IMG/VR virus record: IMGVR_UViG_3300045988_091556
Reading direction: 5' to 3' (one strand)
From: a virus
DNA length: 47,477 nucleotides
Of this stretch, positions 291-33,036 are shown piece by piece. The translations under genes were made by a program, and so were the position numbers. The notes beneath the pieces were generated by a model that saw only the letters and a list, made by a program, of their open reading frames with translations, was not told the DNA's origin and did no database searches. Positions within the stretch are counted from its first letter, which is position 1, and each line of letters begins with the position of its first letter.

Positions 291-791
291 ATGGGGCACA
301 AAAAACAGGCGGCGGGAGGAAAGCGGCCGAAGGAAACCGACGCAATAAAGGAGAAGCTGCAGCACTATGCGACCTTCCAGCGCCGGATCGAGAATAAGAT
401 CGAGCGGCTCGTGTATCTGGAGTCCGTCATGGGCTCACCTTCCAGCCCGAACCTCTCCGGTATGCCGGGAGGCAGCGGAGACGGAACCAGTAAAACGGAA
501 AGGCAGGTCGTCCAAAAAGATGAACTTACTCAGGCGATCAATGCCATGCAGCAGGAGGAATACGACGAGCGCATGGAGCTGGAGCTGCTGATCGGGAAAA
601 TGAAAAACCCGGACGAACAAACCGTCATTGAAATGCGATACTTCGATCATGCACGGTGGTGGGCGGTAAGCGCTGCCCTGTTCGGGGATATGGAGGACTA
701 CGAAGAACACGAAAAGCGGTACCTAAAGCGGACATTTAAGATCCATGGCTCTGCTTTGCAATCGCTGGCGAAAATATACGCACAGAAATAA
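291..791 (+). CDS. Putative late-gene transcriptional activator with a sigma-70 region-4-like domain (ArpU/RinA/DUF1492-type)
   Basis: GGAGG RBS. C-terminal DEQTVIEMRYFDHARWWAVSAALFG resembles a sigma region-4 HTH. Sits just upstream of the packaging genes, as RinA/ArpU genes do. Confidence 0.45.
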   Translation: MGHKKQAAGGKRPKETDAIKEKLQHYATFQRRIENKIERLVYLESVMGSPSSPNLSGMPGGSGDGTSKTERQVVQKDELTQAINAMQQEEYDERMELELLIGKMKNPDEQTVIEMRYFDHARWWAVSAALFGDMEDYEEHEKRYLKRTFKIHGSALQSLAKIYAQK

Positions 792-801
792 GAATATTTC
801 A

Positions 802-844
802 GCGCCCGCTAAAAGCCACAACAGGCTGGAAGCGGGCGTTTTTT
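802..844 (+). terminator. Rho-independent terminator after the activator gene
   Basis: Stem cgcccgct (803-810) pairs with agcgggcg (831-838), followed by T6 (839-844). Confidence 0.6.
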
Positions 845-980
845 GTCCACAGGCAGCAGGAGGACAATGTGGAAAACGGGGCAAAAATAAATATTAAATT
901 TTTATTAACAAAATAATGGAGTCCAAAATGCTGCCTAAAAATGGCCGCAAACGCCCATTTTATCAGTGTTTCCGGGGCGA

Positions 981-1040
981 GGGGATAAAAGGGGATAAAA
1001 AGGGATAAAAGGGGACAAAAGGGGATAAAAAGGGATAAAC
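981..1040. repeat. Six tandem 10-bp repeats GGGGATAAAA (helically phased A-tracts)
   Basis: ggggataaaa ggggataaaa agggataaaa ggggacaaaa ggggataaaa agggataaac, with an exact 10-bp register, preceded by an AT-rich patch at about 880-935. Confidence 0.9.
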
Positions 1041-1132
1041 CCATGTGCTACACTATAAGACAGCGGAAACCGTCTGGAGACACTGCAAGTCTCCGGGCGG
1101 TTTTTCCGTTTCCGAAGGAAAGGAGGCGGGCC

Positions 1133-2125: not shown

Positions 2126-2704
2126 ATGGCAGAAAATCCGAAACAGAACCTACAAAGCACCGACATTATAGCGAAACTTTTCGATCTTGATGTCCGTCGA
2201 GTGCAGCAGCTCGCAAAGGAGGGTATTCTCCCGGCAGCGTCACAAAGGCCCTACAAGTTTGACCTTCTCCCAACCGTTAAGGCGTACATTCGTTACCTGC
2301 GAGATCGGGCAAATGGGAAAGAGGCCAAAACGGCCGACACTGTAAAGGCTGAGGCCGACAAGCTACGGGCAGAGGCGGATCTGAAACAGAGCAAGGCCAA
2401 GATCGCCGAGCTCCAGCTTAAAGAGCTGGAAGGGAAAATGCACCGCAGCGAGGACGTGGAAGCTCTGACGAACGACCTCGTTTACACCGCCCGCAGCATG
2501 ATAATGGCGCTCCCCGGCCGCCTCGCCATGGACGTTGTGCAGGCAGGCAGCGCCAACGAAGCCTCGGCGCTGATCCGGACTGAGTGCTACAAAATACTGG
2601 ACGAGCTCGCGGGCTATCAATACGATCCCGAAGCATACCGGCGGCGCGTGAGGGATCGCGAAGGCTGGAGCGACGCGCTCGCAGATGAAGAAGCCGACGA
2701 GTAA
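2126..2704 (+). CDS. terS: Terminase small subunit (Nu1-like)
   Basis: N-terminal HTH (IAKLFDLDVRRVQQLAKEGILP), a coiled-coil middle and an acidic tail. Lies immediately upstream of, and overlaps, the GpA-type large terminase. Confidence 0.75.
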   Translation: MAENPKQNLQSTDIIAKLFDLDVRRVQQLAKEGILPAASQRPYKFDLLPTVKAYIRYLRDRANGKEAKTADTVKAEADKLRAEADLKQSKAKIAELQLKELEGKMHRSEDVEALTNDLVYTARSMIMALPGRLAMDVVQAGSANEASALIRTECYKILDELAGYQYDPEAYRRRVRDREGWSDALADEEADE

Positions 2705-4616
2705 GAAAGCCGCCAAGAGGCTGAACGCGGCCATAGGCCCAGCAGTCCAAAACTTCAAACCGCCGGAAGAACTGACGGTGGACGAGTGGGCCGACAAGCA
2801 CCGGCGACTCTCCCCGGAAACCTCAGCAGAGGCAGGCCCGTGGCGCACGTCACGAACCCCATACCTCCGGGAACCTATGGAAGCGTTCACGGATCCCAAA
2901 ATCCGCAAGATCGTCATGGTGGCAGCGTCTCAGGTAGGTAAGTCTGAGCTGGAGCTGAATATAATCGGCTACATCATAGACCAAGATCCGGGCTCTATTA
3001 TTTTTGTGCAGCCAACGCTTGACGACGCCAGAAAGTTTTCCCGCTTGCGTATCGCTCCCATGATCCGAGACAGCAAGGTGCTGAAAGCCAAGGTTTCGGA
3101 TATTAAGGCGAAGGACTCTGGGAACACGATCCTCCAGAAATCCTTCCCCGGCGGTATGCTGACAATCACGGGCTCCAACAGCCCGTCGGCTCTTGCTTCC
3201 ACTCCTGCCCGCTACATTATCGGCGACGAGCGCGACCGCTGGGCGATCAGCGCCGGAACCGAGGGCGATCCGTGGGCTCTGGCAGAAGCCAGACAGACCA
3301 CCTTCTATAATGCGAAGGCCGTCGAGGTATCAACTCCGACAATAAAAGGAGCCTCGAACATTGAAAGCAGCTACTACCAAGGAACACAGGAACGCTGGTG
3401 CCACAAGTGCCCGGAGTGTGGCGAGTATGGCGAGATCATATTCGACCGGATCCACTACAAGCACACTGTCAAAAAGGTGCGCGGGAAAAAGGTGTACAGC
3501 ATAGACGGGCCGATCTCATGGGCCTGTCCGAACTGCGGGTGCCTCGTGCCGGAGGAAACCATGCGCCGACAGCCTGCAAAGTGGATCGCAGAAAACCCGG
3601 ACGCCTACGCTACCGGAGCGCGTTCCTTCTGGCTGAACGCCTTCTCGTCCCCGTGGACACCATGGGAAAAGATCGTCCTCAAATTTTTGCAGGCAAAGGA
3701 CGAACCGCAAAAGCTGAAAGTTGTTTACAACACGCTGCTGGGCGAACTCTGGGAGGATCGCGGCGGCATTATCGACGAGGACACCATGCTGGCCCGCCGC
3801 GAGGACTACGGAACCAATGCAGACGGATCCCCGGTGGAACTGCCGGAGGGCGTGCTTGTGCTGACCTGCGGCGTAGATACACAGGACAACCGGCTGGAAT
3901 ACGAAGTTGTGGGGCACGGCTATTATGGCGAAACATGGGGCATAAAAAAAGGCTACATCATGGGAAAACCGGACACCGACGACGTATGGCAGCAGCTCGA
4001 CGACGTGATCGGTCATGTCTACCGCTTCAAAGACAACAAGCGGGGGCTCAGGATCTCGATCACATGCGTGGACTCTGGCGGCCACTATACGCAGGAAGTT
4101 TACACGCGCTGCCGGGCGCGGAAAAATCAGCGTGTCTTTGCTATCAAAGGAAAAGGCGGCGACGGGATCCCATTCGTCACACCGCCCTCGAAAGTGGCGA
4201 TCAAGGACAACAAGCGGATAACCTGCTGGCTCTATACCTTCGGTGTAGACGCCGGGAAAGAGGCGATCATGTCAAACATAAAGGTGCAGGAGCCGGGAGC
4301 GAAATATTGCCATTTCCCGCGGGGCGAAAGCTACGGGTATGACTCTTATTATTTCAACGGCCTGCTGTCTGAAAAGCTGGAGCTTACCCAGACCAAGCGG
4401 GGCAACCGCTGGGCGTGGGTAAAGATCCCTGGACATGAACGAAACGAAGCCCTCGACTGCCGAAACTATGCACTCGGAGGCTTCCGGATCCTCAACCCGG
4501 ACATGGAGGCGGTGGAACGCAGACTCAGTAACATGCCGGAAAATCCACGGCCAAAAAAGGCTGCAGCACCACAGCGACGCCAGAACAATGCGGTGCAGTA
4601 TTTTGATGAATGGTAA
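2685..4616 (+). CDS. terL: Terminase large subunit, lambda GpA family
   Basis: WADKHRRLSPETSAEAGPWRTSRTPYLREPMEAF and Walker-A-like VMVAASQVGKSE. Zinc ribbon CHKCPECG...CPNCGC. 643 aa. Confidence 0.9.
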   Translation: MKKPTSKKAAKRLNAAIGPAVQNFKPPEELTVDEWADKHRRLSPETSAEAGPWRTSRTPYLREPMEAFTDPKIRKIVMVAASQVGKSELELNIIGYIIDQDPGSIIFVQPTLDDARKFSRLRIAPMIRDSKVLKAKVSDIKAKDSGNTILQKSFPGGMLTITGSNSPSALASTPARYIIGDERDRWAISAGTEGDPWALAEARQTTFYNAKAVEVSTPTIKGASNIESSYYQGTQERWCHKCPECGEYGEIIFDRIHYKHTVKKVRGKKVYSIDGPISWACPNCGCLVPEETMRRQPAKWIAENPDAYATGARSFWLNAFSSPWTPWEKIVLKFLQAKDEPQKLKVVYNTLLGELWEDRGGIIDEDTMLARREDYGTNADGSPVELPEGVLVLTCGVDTQDNRLEYEVVGHGYYGETWGIKKGYIMGKPDTDDVWQQLDDVIGHVYRFKDNKRGLRISITCVDSGGHYTQEVYTRCRARKNQRVFAIKGKGGDGIPFVTPPSKVAIKDNKRITCWLYTFGVDAGKEAIMSNIKVQEPGAKYCHFPRGESYGYDSYYFNGLLSEKLELTQTKRGNRWAWVKIPGHERNEALDCRNYALGGFRILNPDMEAVERRLSNMPENPRPKKAAAPQRRQNNAVQYFDEW

Positions 4617-30991: not shown

Positions 30992-32041
30992 ATGGCACGG
31001 CGTTTCAAGCATTTAACAAAAACCGATCGACTGCGTATGGAGCAGCAGCTCAAGGACGGAAAGGGGGCGAAAGAGATCGCCGAAAATCTCGGCGTCCACA
31101 TTTCCACCATATACCGGGAGAAAAAGCGCGGACAATACGAGCACCGCAATAGCGACTGGACGACGGAGATCCGATACAGCCCGGACATAGCCCATGATCG
31201 GTACCGGGAGAACCTTAAAGCCAAAGGGCCGGAGCTGAAACTGGGGAAGGATCGCAAGCTCGCCGAATATATCGAGCACAAGATCGCTGACGAGCAATAC
31301 AGCCCCGCGGCGGTGCTGGGAAGGATCAAGGCGAAAGGCTTAAAATTCAACACTACGATCTCGGTAAACACCCTTTACAGTTACATAGACAAGGGCGTAT
31401 TTCTCCGGATCACAAACAAAGATCTCCCGGTAAAAGGAAGCCGTAAACGGGAATACCGGCATACAAAAGCCCAGTCCAGAGCGCCGAAAGGCGAAAGCAT
31501 AGAGAAACGCCCGGAAGAAATCAATAACCGGGAAACCTTCGGCCACTGGGAAATGGACTGCGTAGAAAGCGCCAAGGGCTGCACCACAACGCTGCTCGTA
31601 TTAACCGAGCGGCTCAGCCGCCGGGAAATCACACGGAGAATGGAAGCAAAGAAAGCGGAAAACGTCGTGGCCGAGCTGGACGCTCTGGAAAAGAGATACG
31701 GCGAGCTTTTCCCTCTGATCTTCAAAAGCATAACGGTAGACAACGGATCGGAGTTTGCAAACTGTGAAGGAATGGAACGGAGCAGCCTCCGCGAAGGCGA
31801 GAAAAGGACGAAGTTATACTACTGTCACCCGTATAGCGCATACGAGCGCGGCAGCAACGAAAACCAGAACAAGCTCGTGCGCCGCCATGCTCCGAAGGGA
31901 TCGAGCTTCGAGGACATGACGGACGAGAGAGCCGACTATATAGAAGGCTGGATGAACGACTACCCCCGGAAAATGTTCAACTGGCACACCCCGGAGGAAG
32001 TATTTCAGACAGAAATAAAGGCCCTCAGTGGGGCCTTATAA
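30992..32041 (+). mobile_element. IS30-family DDE transposase / integrase gene
   Basis: N-terminal HTH (KHLTKTDRLRMEQQLKDGKGAKEIAENLGVHISTIYRE). Catalytic motifs FGHWEMD, TVDNGSEF, YERGSNENQNKLVRR. 349 aa. Confidence 0.85.
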
Positions 32042-32048
32042 AATATTT

Positions 32049-32143
32049 TTGACTTTTTTCGCATTTACTCTTGACATTTACCTTTGAAAAATGTAACATT
32101 AAATGCGAAAGGAAGCGAAAGCCTCCCGACGCATTATTTTTTT
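32049..32143 (+). promoter_or_regulatory. Bipartite inverted repeat overlapping a near-consensus promoter, followed by a hairpin and T-run
   Basis: TTTCGCATTTA (32057-67) pairs with TAAATGCGAAA (32100-110), and ACATTT (32074-79) with AAATGT (32089-94). TTGACA (32071-76), 17 nt, TAACAT (32094-99). GAAA-loop hairpin 32111-26, T7 at 32037+... specifically 32137-43. Confidence 0.6.
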
Positions 32144-32171
32144 ACCCAGAAACAGAGAAAAAGGCCATACA

Positions 32172-32417
32172 CGGCCACTTTATAAAGTCTGTATTGTGCG
32201 GTGTAGGTTGACAGGTTTTGCCGGGCTTTTAAGGTGAAAACCCGGAAGCGGTGGAGAGCAGTAACGCTCTAAAAGGCTCCATGTCGTTCAACAGGTTTGC
32301 AGCTTTTAAGGTGAAAGCTGATACGGTTCGGGCCTCCCGACAAAAAGCACCCGCCGGATCGCGTGAAAGCCGGTTGAGAAGCGCACGCCCAACAATGCAG
32401 ATTTTACAAAGTGGCCG
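32172..32417 (+). ncRNA. Candidate structured RNA or leader: long-range closing helix around three hairpins with conserved loops
   Basis: cggccacttt (32172-81) pairs with aaagtggccg (32408-17). Hairpins at 32221-45, 32300-20 and 32354-73. An identical 15-mer GCTTTTAAGGTGAAA occurs at 32225 and 32302, with different stems flanking it. Confidence 0.4.
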
Positions 32418-32451
32418 GGTGCGGCAAGGGCCCCGCAAAGGAGGTGAAAAT

Positions 32452-32733
32452 GTGAGCGGATACAGATATTTAACACTGGCAGACCGGCAGACGCTGGAGG
32501 CCCTCTATCTGGAAGGCGACCGCGTTCAGGACATAGCCGACCAGATCGGCGTCCATGTAGCCACTGTCTACAAGGAACTGAAAAGAGGCGAAACCGGAGG
32601 GCTCGATCGGAACATGCGGCGAGAGTATAGCGCCACACTGGCCCAGCGCCGCCTTGCGGAGAACTTCAAAAGGCGCGGAAGGAAAGCCGACGAAGCCGAT
32701 CACTCGGATCTTGCCGAAGCCGTGAAGGTGTGA
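32452..32733 (+). CDS. IS30-type N-terminal HTH domain protein (transposase fragment or regulator), 93 aa
   Basis: GTG 7 nt after GGAGG. YRYLTLADRQTLEALYLEGDRVQDIADQIGVHVATVYKELKRG parallels the N-terminus of the 30992 transposase. No DDE domain follows. Confidence 0.65.
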   Translation: MSGYRYLTLADRQTLEALYLEGDRVQDIADQIGVHVATVYKELKRGETGGLDRNMRREYSATLAQRRLAENFKRRGRKADEADHSDLAEAVKV

Positions 32734-32757: not shown

Positions 32758-33036
32758 ATGAAAAAGGACTTTAGATATGACGCCGCCCTTTTGAGTCGTG
32801 CGTCATTCCCGGCGGTACTGGAAGCGGGAAACCGCCCTTGCATTGTAGAAACGACCGTTTACCGGCTCAACGCGGTAGCTGTCACCAGCCTTATGCTGGA
32901 CGGCTTTGAACCGCTGCTGAACTTTATCGGCTTGAGCCCGGACGACACATACATAACACAGCACGAAGTTGAGGACATTGTAACCGTTGTGCATATCAGA
33001 AAGGAGGCAGAGGCATGGCAGCACTCAACAAAGTAG
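32758..33036 (+). CDS. Hypothetical protein
   Basis: 92-aa ORF with an RBS-like GAAAGGAAA. No motif recognised. Confidence 0.4.
   Translation: MKKDFRYDAALLSRASFPAVLEAGNRPCIVETTVYRLNAVAVTSLMLDGFEPLLNFIGLSPDDTYITQHEVEDIVTVVHIRKEAEAWQHSTK

What the first reader, a model, noticed from the sequence alone, without database searches (positions are those of the whole stretch)
32172..32417. Candidate novel structured RNA between the transposase and the HTH-only gene
A 10-bp perfect long-range helix (cggccacttt 32172-81 with aaagtggccg 32408-17) is extendable by 4-5 more pairs after one mismatch. It encloses about 225 nt that contain three hairpins:
- 32221-45: ccggg/cccgg
- 32300-20: cagct/agctg
- 32354-73: ccgg/ccgg

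The first two hairpins share an identical 15-mer, GCTTTTAAGGTGAAA, while the remaining stem positions flanking it differ (ccgg/ccgg versus ca/tg) (a covariation-like signature). The third has a related GCGTGAAAG loop.

The two identical 15-mers are 77 nt apart, which is not a multiple of 3, so they are not a protein-level repeat. A 10-mer with an anti-SD-like core (GCCTCCCGAC) occurs twice, at 32121 and 32331. It could sequester the GGAGG of the 32452 gene.

The overall shape is a closing helix plus a multi-hairpin junction directly upstream of an RBS. That is what a riboswitch-like or protein-binding leader looks like, but I cannot match it to any family I know.
Basis: seen in the sequence. 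Interest (0 to 1): 0.65.

Follow-up and report, generated by a model that had tools for sequence, protein, structure and literature searches.

The report
New structured RNA in phage leader
The flagged 260-base stretch is a real, evolutionarily conserved folded RNA of a widespread family in gut-bacterial viruses that matches no Rfam family, often sits next to self-cleaving ribozymes, and has no known function.

Summary
Window 32164-32425 (+ strand) forms a closing helix of about 30 bp around five hairpins and a pseudoknot. Compared with Faecalibacterium phage Lagaffe, it is an optional ~277-nt cassette. It lies in the leader between a promoter spanning the joined prophage ends and the first early gene (GTG 32452).

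Diverged homologues show strong covariation:
- In 14 sequences, 30 of 54 pairs have compensatory changes.
- Two pseudoknot positions pair in 33 of 33 distinct sequences, as A-U, G-C or G-U.
- G-U wobbles outnumber A-C mismatches, so the sense strand is the folded one.
- Stop codons and a homopolymer indel argue against coding.

Rfam 15 gives no match, even at E=10.

The conserved unit occurs in at least 119 viral contigs and 64 species genomes, mostly Lachnospiraceae and other Clostridia. The genes downstream of it are unrelated to one another. Hammerhead-II, twister or RAGATH-8 RNAs often lie directly 5' of it.

It is therefore a new orphan RNA family that keeps company with ribozymes. It is not a gene-specific riboswitch, an RBS-sequestering leader, a MITE or an ORF.

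Function is inferred only. My best guess is an autonomous domain at or near the 5' end of the early transcript that binds a host or phage factor. Processive antitermination is a weaker rival.

The parts
32071..32099 (+). Context: sigma-70-type promoter TTGACA-17-TAACAT spanning the joined ends of the prophage. The -35 lies on the transposase side and the -10 on the leader side.
   Evidence: Promoter scan, 10 of 12 matches. Integrated relatives L003, L006, L007 and L008 diverge upstream of about 32085, between the two hexamers. The 5-nt spacer differs among circular or phage-form relatives.
32102..32143 (+). Context: conserved leader hairpin (AATGCG...CGCATT) followed by A+U7. It looks like a terminator or insulator and lies upstream of the element. 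It contains the first GCCTCCCGAC.
   Evidence: Folds at -10.7 to -13 kcal/mol in the window, and to -18.5 or -26.8 in L063 and L016. Present in Lagaffe and in L016, where the inner sequence differs.
32164..32204 (+). P1, 5' arm of the long closing helix.
   Evidence: Inverted repeat I1. The RNAalifold helix has 14 of 22 outer pairs with compensatory changes.
32211..32245 (+). Unit 1: invariant ACAGGTTT(T) plus hairpin H1. The stem is 32221-32225 with 32241-32245. The conserved top is CTTTTAAGGTGAAAA.
   Evidence: Invariant columns in A2 and A4. The stem covaries, for example CCGGG/CCCGG to CCCGG/CCGGG in L015.
32247..32268 (+). Pseudoknot: AGCGGT (32247-32252) pairs with AACGCT (32263-32268) in the loop of the middle hairpin.
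   Evidence: Pair J1-L6 is A-U in 24, G-C in 7 and G-U in 2 sequences. Pair J2-L5 is G-C in 22, A-U in 6 and G-U in 5. All 33 distinct sequences are paired at both positions.
32253..32281 (+). Middle hairpin Hm (GGAGAGC...GCTCC), with invariant AACGC and AAAA in its loop.
   Evidence: All 4 predicted pairs show compensatory changes (helix 4). Invariant columns are listed.
32282..32326 (+). Unit 2: TGTCGTTCAACAGGTTT plus hairpin H2, then conserved GATACGG. The H2 stem is 32300-32303 with 32317-32320 and its top is TTTTAAGGTGAAA.
   Evidence: Direct repeats D6 and D7. Stem pairs covary, for example pair 154/172 is AU:5, UA:5, GC:4.
32329..32352 (+). Variable hairpin Hv. Its loop carries the second GCCTCCCGAC (32332-32341). 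This hairpin is optional in the family.
   Evidence: By eye, the stem changes from CGGG/CCCG here to GGCG/CGCC (L015) and GATTC/GAATC (L052). It is absent in the short subfamilies. No formal score was computed.
32353..32374 (+). Hairpin H3 (GCCGG...CCGGT), with the loop ATCGCGTGAAAG. This hairpin is optional in the family.
   Evidence: Three of 5 pairs show compensatory changes (helix 6).
32385..32425 (+). P1, 3' arm of the closing helix.
32436..32733 (+). Context: RBS AAAGGAGGTGA and the HTH_38 gene (GTG 32452, 93 aa). It is the homologue of Lagaffe gp38 and the first early gene.
   Evidence: Alignment with Lagaffe. Pfam HTH_38, E 3.5e-11.

Best explanation
SHOWN. Window 32164-32425 is one copy of a conserved, pseudoknotted RNA domain read from the + (sense) strand. 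It belongs to a large family that is not in Rfam. The family is carried by temperate phages, prophages and integrase/primase islands of gut Clostridia. In this Lagaffe-like phage it is an optional cassette of about 277 nt in the 5' leader. It lies between the promoter that spans the joined prophage ends and the first early gene.

The fold is a closing helix of about 30 bp (P1) around two copies of one unit. Each unit is ACARGUUU followed by a hairpin whose top is UUUUAAGGUGAAA. The second unit is preceded by an RRCGGU:AACGCY pseudoknot. Two optional hairpins follow.

INFERRED MECHANISM. The domain folds on its own, insulated from its flanks by P1. In relatives a hammerhead or twister ribozyme lies directly 5' of it and would cut the transcript just upstream. 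In four of those relatives the ribozyme abuts the core and the closing helix is weaker. P1 is also long enough to be an RNase III-type substrate. The domain therefore probably sits at or near the 5' end of the early transcript, or is released from it. Through its invariant loops and joining strands it would dock a host or phage factor, such as the ribosome, RNA polymerase or a protein, and so affect expression or stability of whatever lies downstream.

It does not act as a gene-specific riboswitch or by hiding the RBS of gene 32452. I put about 0.9 on 'real, conserved, sense-strand structured RNA of a new family' and about 0.3 on the processing or 5'-domain mechanism.
For: - Structure and covariation: 54 predicted pairs, 30 with compensatory changes. 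91.1% of cells are paired against 77.3% in shuffles. The covariation score is 0.426 against 0.191 (0 of 500 shuffles reach it), and slid controls give at most 0.11.
- Larger, model-fitted set: 33 distinct sequences, 96.9% paired, score 0.296 against 0.100.
- Pseudoknot: paired in 33 of 33 sequences at both variable positions, with three pair types at each.
- Strand: 88 G-U against 24 A-C in the helices. The element always points the same way as the downstream genes.
- Not coding.
- Insertion relative to Lagaffe. Absent in L016.
- No Rfam match, even at E=10.
- Spread: one search returned 64 genome stretches, mostly Lachnospiraceae and other Clostridia. In one search, 25 of 100 further loci held full two-unit cores scoring 87-132 bits. 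The window scores 137.6 bits.
- Ribozymes directly 5': hammerhead-II above the Rfam gathering score in L095, L127, L143, L123 and L190. Twister-P1-like matches in L074, L089 and L061, with E from 2e-10 to 1.5e-5. By regular expression, 26 of 46 one-unit and 6 of 21 two-unit instances have one within 300 nt upstream.
- RAGATH-8 lies about 75-130 nt upstream in seven loci and about 700 nt upstream in L190.
- In L143, L123, L095 and L061 the ribozyme ends 9-17 nt before the core and the closing duplex is weaker, -28 to -36 against -45 to -60 kcal/mol.
- The first downstream ORFs fall into dozens of unrelated families.
Against: - No transcript, 5'-end or cleavage data exist for any member.
- The window itself has no ribozyme: Rfam finds nothing in all 47 kb.
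- Ribozyme and full-length P1 coexist in L127, L152 and L190, so they are not simple alternatives.
- A mere stabiliser or insulator would not need about 50 invariant nucleotides and a pseudoknot.
- The Shine-Dalgarno-like AAGGUGA is not kept in unit 2 of several members (AAUGUG, AUUGUG, AGUGUG). This argues against simple ribosome docking through the anti-SD.
- Close relatives do without the cassette, so whatever it does is dispensable.
Confidence: 0.4

Rival explanations
1. Processive antitermination RNA, working like HK022 put, Bacillus EAR, pLS20 conAn2 or Tn916 canT. The nascent domain would bind the transcribing RNA polymerase and make it read through terminators in the long one-directional gene array.
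For: - It sits at the very start of the early operon, or right after a cro-like gene, much as nutR follows cro in lambda.
- Almost all genes of the window are on the + strand.
- conAn2 is likewise a central region of about 238 nt closed by 20-bp inverted repeats, with internal stem-loops (PMC8191782).
- Tn916 combines transcription after excision with an insulating terminator near the element end and a cis-acting antiterminator RNA (PMC11658703).
- The function would not depend on which gene lies downstream.
Against: - My scan found no strong intrinsic terminator on the + strand inside the early operon, 32.4-47.4 kb and on to 791.
- The only nearby terminator-like hairpin (32102-32143) lies upstream of the element.
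- Late genes follow a sigma-factor-like gene (291-791) and a strong terminator just downstream of it, T-run at 839. This suggests control by a late promoter.
- Lagaffe and L016 share the operon but lack the element.
- The closing repeats of conAn2 were dispensable.
- Association with 5' ribozymes is not predicted by this model.
- Rho-dependent termination could not be assessed.
Confidence: 0.15
2. Released, trans-acting phage RNA, for example a decoy or an anti-defence RNA. The domain would be cut out of the early transcript and bind or titrate a host factor.
For: - It is present or absent among otherwise syntenic phages, the pattern of an accessory gene.
- It is the first thing transcribed after the promoter in this phage.
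- It is a closed, self-contained fold.
- Ribozymes at its 5' side and a long double-stranded RNA helix could serve as cutting sites.
- It was found almost only in phage, prophage and island contexts.
Against: - It has no promoter or terminator of its own.
- No 3' processing element was identified.
- No sequence complementary to its loops occurs in the window.
- No link to a particular defence or partner gene emerged.
Confidence: 0.13
3. Tandem-aptamer riboswitch or other ligand-sensing RNA that tunes early phage expression to the state of the host.
For: - Many invariant nucleotides lie in junctions and loops while the stems covary.
- It has a pseudoknot.
- The unit is duplicated in tandem, reminiscent of the glycine and guanidine-II riboswitches (my own knowledge).
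- It lies in a 5' leader.
- One-unit relatives are followed by a small conserved leader ORF (MKRPREPP) whose SD can pair with its own Pro-Pro codons. That could be an expression platform.
Against: - It has no conserved downstream gene class.
- The two-unit family has no conserved terminator or RBS-sequestering alternative.
- It can lie between genes or after the HTH gene.
- It is dispensable in close relatives.
Confidence: 0.1
4. A new self-cleaving or otherwise catalytic RNA.
For: - It lives in the neighbourhoods where hammerhead, twister and RAGATH RNAs cluster. A search of such neighbourhoods is how twister-sister, pistol and hatchet were found (PMC5737381).
- It has a conserved core with a pseudoknot.
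Against: - At about 125-260 nt it is much larger than the known small self-cleaving classes.
- It matches no ribozyme model.
- Most RAGATH candidates still have no known function (PMC11061315).
- Nothing here tests catalysis.
Confidence: 0.06
5. A DNA-level feature: a MITE or IS remnant with terminal inverted repeats, a replication origin with iterons, or a single-strand origin or promoter.
For: - It has 41-nt inverted-repeat arms and is an insertion relative to Lagaffe.
- AAAGG lies on both sides (32160-32164 and 32437-32441, read).
- It lies next to the end bound by the IS30-type transposase, and upstream of primase genes in the islands.
Against: - There is one copy per window or locus.
- It always points the same way as transcription.
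- Helices keep pairing through compensatory changes while the arm sequences change. That is the opposite of protein-bound DNA repeats.
- G-U exceeds A-C on the sense strand.
- The pseudoknot and the adjacent ribozymes are RNA features.
- No match in the plasmid collection.
Confidence: 0.03
6. Protein-coding: an N-terminal extension of the HTH protein from GTG 32251, or a small ORF from ATG 32283.
For: - The ORF 32251-32733 is open and in frame in the window.
- An ATG or TTG is conserved at 32283-32285.
- Variation shows a mild third-position excess over the first 16 codons.
Against: - TGA stop in L015.
- A5/A6 frameshift among 99%-identical relatives.
- Stops in all three frames in every homologue, and no periodicity over the whole element (0.82, 0.75, 0.85).
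- The Lagaffe homologue starts at the GTG equivalent to 32452, behind a strong RBS.
- The two units are 77 nt apart, which is not a multiple of 3.
Confidence: 0.02

Closest known systems
[quoted passage not shown] RAGATH-8, Rfam RF02687
   Same: - Both are complex, conserved RNA folds in phage-like regions of gut Firmicutes.
- Both sit beside hammerhead-II or twister ribozymes.
- RAGATH-8 itself lies about 75-130 nt upstream of this element in seven loci, and about 700 nt upstream in an eighth.
- Function is unknown for most of the class.
   Different: - It matches no Rfam model, RAGATH or other, even at E=10.
- The architecture differs: a long closing helix, two repeated units and a pseudoknot.
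- The copy in this window has no ribozyme or RAGATH RNA anywhere in 47 kb.
Processive antitermination RNAs of mobile elements: conAn2 (pLS20), canT (Tn916), put (HK022), EAR (Bacillus eps)
   Same: - Both are structured, sense-strand leader RNAs at the start of a long operon of a mobile element.
- conAn2 has a central region of about 238 nt closed by 20-bp inverted repeats, with internal stem-loops.
- In Tn916, element genes are transcribed across the joined ends only after excision, and an insulating terminator sits near the element end.
   Different: - No sequence or model similarity.
- No predicted terminators downstream here.
- The element is optional among close relatives.
- The conAn2 repeats were dispensable, whereas P1 covaries here.
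- No ConAn1-like partner was looked for or found.
Tandem-aptamer riboswitches (glycine, guanidine-II); recalled from my own knowledge, not tested
   Same: Two copies of one conserved unit within a single fold. Invariant loops and junctions with covarying stems. Located in a 5' leader.
   Different: No conserved regulated gene, no recognisable expression platform, sometimes intercistronic, and dispensable.
RNase III processing hairpins and 5' stabilisers of phage early mRNAs (T7, SP82; cryIIIA STAB-SD); recalled from my own knowledge, not tested
   Same: A long double-stranded helix in early phage transcripts between or ahead of cistrons. Purine-rich, SD-like sequence (AAGGUGA) displayed near the new 5' end.
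   Different: Those sites conserve shape rather than about 50 invariant nucleotides and a pseudoknot. SD-likeness is not kept in unit 2 of this family.
MITEs (miniature inverted-repeat transposable elements)
   Same: About 260 nt, long terminal inverted repeats, and present or absent between relatives.
   Different: Single copy, fixed orientation relative to transcription, RNA-type covariation with G-U wobble, and no clear target-site duplication.

Membership tests
Any Rfam 15 family (4227 covariance models) | Score at or above the family's gathering threshold, or at least a weak E-value match | tested here: not met
   No hit in the whole window at gathering score. Nothing inside 32164-32425 at E up to 10 when 901 nt were searched. 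Nothing at E up to 10 when 271 nt were searched.
New 'two-unit' RNA family defined here (model R1) | Two units (ACARGUUU plus a hairpin with the UUUUAAGGUGAAA top), the RRCGGU:AACGCY pseudoknot and a closing helix | tested here: met
   The window scores 137.6 bits. It is one of the 14 sequences the model was built from, so a match is expected by construction. Independent members score 87-132 bits. The pseudoknot and helices are present at the mapped coordinates.
RAGATH-type ribozyme-associated RNA | Conserved structured RNA lying close to hammerhead or twister ribozymes, or to their associated genes | tested here: inconclusive
   Met for the family: hammerhead-II, twister or RAGATH-8 lie 5' of many members. 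Not met for this copy: no ribozyme in the window. The original RAGATH paper could not be read, so identity with an unpublished or unlisted motif cannot be excluded.
Riboswitch | Consistent association with one class of downstream genes or pathway | tested here: not met
   The first downstream ORFs fall into dozens of unrelated clusters: HTH, primase/VapE, helicase, methylases, a portal-like protein and small ORFs.
Riboswitch | Expression platform (a terminator or an RBS-sequestering alternative) coupled to the aptamer | tested here: not met
   No terminator follows the element. The linker to the RBS is not conserved. The segment between P1 and the start codon folds no better than shuffles.
Riboswitch | Ligand binding | not testable with these tools
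   Needs in-line probing or ITC.
Processive antitermination RNA (put/EAR/conAn2/canT-like) | Lies upstream of terminators that must be read through within the same operon | tested here: not met
   My hairpin-plus-T-run scan found no strong intrinsic terminator on the + strand inside the early operon. The strong ones lie just after ORF 291-791 (T-run at 839), at 1101, and upstream of the element. Rho-dependent sites cannot be predicted.
Processive antitermination RNA (put/EAR/conAn2/canT-like) | Cis-acting, orientation-specific read-through activity | not testable with these tools
   Needs reporter assays.
MITE / IS end | Multiple dispersed copies, target-site duplication, and arms that resemble the ends of an IS | tested here: not met
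   Single copy in the window. Same position and orientation in the Lagaffe-like relatives. Arms are unrelated to the IS30-type end repeats at 32057-32110. No hit in the plasmid collection, and only the leader matches phage records.
Protein-coding sequence | Open frame conserved in homologues, with third-position bias | tested here: not met
   Stops and a frameshift in homologues, and no periodicity.
Self-cleaving ribozyme (known classes) | Match to the hammerhead, twister, twister-sister, pistol, hatchet, HDV, hairpin or glmS models | tested here: not met
   No match. Catalysis itself cannot be tested here.

The most novel reading that the evidence does not exclude
The element represents a new functional class of phage RNA with a biochemical role of its own. 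It would not be a variant of the known antiterminator, riboswitch or ribozyme classes. Examples are a new catalytic RNA, or a docking or decoy RNA for a host machine or defence factor. Together with hammerhead, twister and RAGATH-8 RNAs it would form tandem arrays of structured RNAs in the early transcripts of human-gut Clostridia phages.
Probability: 0.3. Interest if true: 0.8.

Novelty: new variant of a known kind. Interest (0 to 1): 0.62.

Why it matters
Structured RNAs with this much conservation usually carry out a specific biochemical job. This family has about 50 invariant positions, a pseudoknot and a duplicated unit.

It is common in phages and prophages of Lachnospiraceae and other Clostridia, which are dominant human-gut bacteria. 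It is absent from Rfam. It is physically linked to hammerhead, twister and RAGATH-8 RNAs, whose roles in phages are themselves unexplained.

One earlier orphan from these neighbourhoods, RAGATH-18, turned out to be the guide-RNA scaffold of IS607 TnpB nucleases (PMC11061315).

Defining this family gives a concrete target that can be tested in culture. Prophages carrying it exist in cultured strains, including Lachnoclostridium sp. An14, Sporofaciens musculi WCA-9-b2, Blautia luti and Dorea ammoniilytica. That makes it possible to ask what ribozyme-associated RNAs do in phage gene expression.

Tried and rejected
- Rfam, at gathering score and at E up to 10, on the window and on the element alone: nothing.
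- tRNA and tmRNA search: none.
- BLAST of the region: only the leader matches phage Lagaffe, and there are no plasmid hits.
- Coding hypothesis: rejected.
- MITE or IS hypothesis: rejected. The element is single copy, has a fixed orientation and shows RNA-type covariation.
- Anti-SD sequestration by GCCTCCCGAC: rejected, because the second copy is not conserved.
- Co-occurrence with the 92-aa ORF 32758-33036 as a possible protein partner: rejected, because L016 has that ORF without the element.
- Antitermination: looked for downstream terminators and found none inside the early operon.
- Guide or 'bridge' RNA for the IS30-type transposase, suggested by the promoter across the joined ends: rejected. 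Lagaffe has the same transposase without the element, the family also occurs in tyrosine-integrase islands and mid-genome, and its loops are invariant rather than target-matched.
- Simple Shine-Dalgarno decoy: weakened by variation in unit 2.
- Full-text search for the loop sequence: nothing relevant.
- Literature searches for a described motif: nothing.
- The original RAGATH paper (PMC4509812) is not held.
- A MAFFT alignment mixing one-unit and two-unit members (A3) aligned the stems poorly and gave no usable consensus. It was not used for a model.
- Model R1 covers only the 129-nt core, with 20 pairs and no pseudoknot.
- 'Ribozyme replaces outer P1' holds in four members but not in three others, so it is reported as mixed evidence.
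Full report
**1. The observation**

- The perfect 10-bp helix 32172-32181 / 32408-32417 is the core of a longer imperfect inverted repeat. Its arms are 41 nt, 32164-32204 and 32385-32425, and are 78% complementary.
- The three hairpins are present.
- The 15-mer GCTTTTAAGGTGAAA occurs at 32225 and 32302. These are the only matches in 47 kb with up to two mismatches, against 0.11 expected by chance.
- GCCTCCCGAC occurs at 32121 and 32332, not 32331.
- The 271-nt segment folds about 5 SD better than dinucleotide shuffles on either strand.
- Each 15-mer is part of a longer repeated unit, TGTnGnTnnACAGGTTT plus a hairpin (D7).

**2. Genomic setting**

The window is a relative of Faecalibacterium phage FP_Lagaffe. 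Lagaffe's integrase is annotated as an IS30-family transposase. The window's copy is 30992-32041 and hits Pfam HTH_38 plus rve, the latter below Pfam's cutoff.

Downstream of it lie the joined ends of the element. A 16-nt inverted repeat (32057-32072 / 32095-32110) brackets a near-consensus promoter, TTGACA-17-TAACAT, at 32071-32099. In integrated prophages (L003, L006-L008 and the Lachnospiraceae loci) homology stops at about 32085, between the two hexamers. In circular or phage-form contigs the 5 nt there differ from phage to phage. The promoter therefore exists only when the ends are joined.

A conserved hairpin followed by U7 (32102-32143) comes next.

In Lagaffe the RBS and the HTH gene (gp38) follow directly. 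In the window about 277 nt are interposed between the leader and the RBS (AAAGGAGG; GTG 32452). L016, another relative, also lacks the insert.

**3. Homologues and covariation**

Pattern scans and nhmmer recovered a graded series of homologues:
- 95-99% identical copies
- an 84% group (L015, L026)
- an 81% group in mouse and human Lachnospiraceae prophages (for example Sporofaciens musculi)
- 60-70% members in quite different elements (L052, L083, L101, L085, L079, L061, L095, L074)

On 14 representatives RNAalifold predicts 54 pairs, 30 of which have compensatory changes. The counting tool gives 91.1% of cells paired against 77.3% in shuffles. The covariation score is 0.426 against 0.191 (0 of 500 shuffles reach it), and at most 0.11 when partners are slid by 1-3 columns.

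All six helices covary: outer P1, inner P1, H1, the middle hairpin, H2 and H3.

A further interaction pairs AGCGGU (32247-32252) with AACGCU (32263-32268) in the loop of the middle hairpin. Across 33 distinct sequences the first pair is A-U in 24, G-C in 7 and G-U in 2. The second pair is G-C in 22, A-U in 6 and G-U in 5. None is unpaired. This is a pseudoknot.

A covariance model of the 129-nt core (R1) scores the window at 137.6 bits. The window is one of the 14 sequences the model was built from. It finds full two-unit cores at 87-132 bits in 25 of 100 further loci, mostly IMG/VR gut-phage contigs. The 33-sequence alignment is fitted to the model and so leans towards the structure. It gives 96.9% paired and a score of 0.296 against 0.100.

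**4. Strand, coding and DNA-level alternatives**

- Strand: within the helices, G-U pairs (88) far outnumber A-C (24) on the + strand. Twenty-eight of the G-U pairs are the invariant U-G in the tops of H1 and H2, and the structure was predicted on the + strand, so the count is somewhat biased. The element also always points the same way as the genes downstream.
- Coding: the long ORF from 32251 is not conserved. L015 has an in-frame TGA. The 99%-identical relatives differ by A5/A6 at 32342-32346. Every homologue has stops in all three frames, and there is no codon periodicity.
- DNA-level: there is one copy per window or locus and no clear target duplication, only AAAGG on both sides. Arm sequences change while pairing is kept, which is the opposite of what protein-bound DNA repeats do.

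I therefore regard a sense-strand RNA structure as established, at about 0.9.

**5. What kind of RNA**

It is not in Rfam 15. There is no hit at the gathering threshold in the window, and none at E up to 10 on 901 nt or on the element alone.

It is not a gene-specific leader.
- In Lagaffe-like phages it precedes the HTH_38 gene.
- In L060/L070 it follows that gene.
- In L052, L083, L101 and L085 it lies between a cro-like or excisionase-like HTH gene and a VapE-type primase or a DnaB-like helicase. These islands also carry a tyrosine-type integrase and a cI-like repressor, judged by eye from the ORFs.
- Across 76 non-redundant instances, the first downstream ORFs fall into dozens of unrelated clusters.

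The anti-SD idea fails. The 32332 copy of GCCTCCCGAC is not conserved in the 81-84% homologues although their RBS is. The 32121 copy belongs to the separate leader hairpin.

**6. The wider family and its company**

The conserved unit is ACARGUUU, then a stem, then UUUUAAGGUGAAA, then the closing strand of the stem. It is preceded by RGCGG and a small hairpin. It occurs in three forms:
- twice, in a closed domain (this element)
- twice, in a minimal version of about 110 nt (L089)
- once, in a different RNA of about 230 nt found in at least 20 Lachnospiraceae loci

Hv and H3 are optional in the family.

Self-cleaving ribozymes sit directly 5' of many members.
- Hammerhead-II scores above the Rfam gathering threshold in L095, L127, L143, L123 and L190. 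It scores just below it in the one-unit family.
- Twister-P1-like matches, below the gathering score, occur in L074 (57.8 bits, E 2e-10), L089 (E 1e-7) and L061 (E 1.5e-5).
- A regular-expression count gives 26 of 46 one-unit and 6 of 21 two-unit instances with a ribozyme within 300 nt upstream.
- RAGATH-8 (RF02687) lies about 75-130 nt upstream of the core in seven viral loci and about 700 nt upstream in L190.

[quoted passage not shown] Most remain unexplained (PMC5737381; PMC11061315). The element is thus a new, unlisted member of this ribozyme-associated 'dark matter'. The copy in this window has no ribozyme nearby.

**7. How it may work (inference)**

The identity of downstream genes does not matter, the domain is closed and insulated, and cleavage sites lie next to it in relatives. 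Together these point to an autonomous RNA domain at or near the 5' end of a processed early transcript. Its invariant loops and junctions would dock some factor.

In four members the ribozyme ends 9-17 nt before the core and the closing duplex is weaker. In three others the ribozyme and a full P1 coexist. So 'P1 equals a processing site' is only suggestive.

Processive antitermination was the most attractive analogy.
- conAn2 of pLS20 is also a region of about 238 nt closed by 20-bp repeats.
- Tn916 uses an insulating terminator near the element end, plus a cis-acting antiterminator RNA that acts after excision.
- Against it, my scan finds no strong intrinsic terminator inside the early operon (32.4-47.4 kb and on to 791).
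- Late genes follow a sigma-factor-like gene and a strong terminator just downstream of it, with its T-run at 839.
- Lagaffe manages without the element.

I rank the explanations as follows:
- processing or 5'-domain with factor docking, about 0.3 for the mechanism (0.4 for the statement as a whole)
- antitermination, 0.15
- released trans-acting or decoy RNA, 0.13
- ligand-sensing switch, 0.10
- new ribozyme, 0.06
- DNA-level feature, 0.03
- coding, 0.02

**8. Verdict**

The RBS-specific, anti-SD part is not.
- Novelty: a new RNA family within the known kind of ribozyme-associated orphan phage RNAs.
- Interest is moderate to high. The family is abundant in human-gut phages, structurally elaborate and testable in cultured lysogens. 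No function is shown here.

Noticed in passing
window 32057-32110: The prophage ends are IS30-type inverted repeats. When joined they create a near-consensus promoter, with the -35 on the right end and the -10 on the left end. The 5-nt spacer (ACCTT here) differs in each circular relative, and integrated copies break exactly there. The early operon should therefore be transcribed from this promoter only after excision or circularisation. From memory, IS30 circle junctions behave similarly.
   Followed up: partly
window 32102-32143: A conserved hairpin followed by U7 lies immediately after the -10, and looks like a terminator or insulator. Its 5' arm (AATGCG, 32102-32107) overlaps the expected transcription start at about 32105-32108. 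Read-in transcripts from the host would contain the whole hairpin and might terminate. Transcripts from the joined-end promoter would lack the 5' arm. L016 keeps the hairpin with a different inner sequence. This is speculative and untested.
   Followed up: partly
L069:2600-2910 (- strand), L088, L105, L093 and about 20 other Lachnospiraceae loci: A related one-unit RNA of about 230 nt starts with a type-II hammerhead scoring 30-36 bits, just under Rfam's cutoff of 37. In about a dozen instances it is followed by a small conserved leader ORF (MKRPREPP...). The SD of that ORF (GGUGG) can pair with its own Pro-Pro codons (CCACC). This may be a translational switch.
   Followed up: partly
L139:4381-4655, L159:6504-6779, L114:11740-12019, L190:5124-5397, L188, L110, L109, L210: RAGATH-8 RNA (RF02687, up to 306 bits) lies just upstream of the two-unit element. 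In L190 the order is RAGATH-8, then hammerhead-II, then the element. These are tandem arrays of structured RNAs in gut-phage contigs.
   Followed up: no
L074:3189-3256, L089:7243-7302 (- strand), L061:7715-7766: Twister-P1-like ribozymes with E from 2e-10 to 1.5e-5 but below Rfam's gathering score (67.2 bits). They are probably shortened variants that lack one stem, and standard annotation would miss them.
   Followed up: no
L078:5346-5460, L087:6530-6645: Only the first 95 nt or so of the element (P1 5' arm plus unit 1) are present, fused to unrelated sequence inside a 163-aa ORF. This is probably a truncated prophage-end remnant.
   Followed up: no
window 291-1110: ORF 291-791 matches the Lagaffe gene annotated as RNA polymerase sigma factor or transcriptional regulator. 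Two strong + strand terminator-like hairpins follow, with T-runs at 839 and 1101, ahead of the large ORF 2685-4616 that I took for the large terminase without testing it. This is probably the boundary between early and late genes, with late transcription depending on the sigma factor.
   Followed up: partly
window 32342-32346: The A5 run is A6 in relatives that are about 99% identical (L002, L006, L007, L009, L010). The homopolymer length varies inside the loop of the variable hairpin.
   Followed up: yes
L060:1075-1186 and L070: A more distant group of phages with the same leader type carries two successive AATGCG...CGCATT+U7 leader hairpins. The HTH_38 gene sits upstream of the element rather than downstream. 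L070 also holds a Clostridiales-1 RNA and a 6S RNA a few kb away.
   Followed up: no
ON453901.1 (Clostridium phage Saumur) 46728-46802: An isolated Enterocloster clostridioformis phage has a partial match to the one-unit RNA, under a gene annotated as a hypothetical protein. This is a possible experimental system.
   Followed up: no
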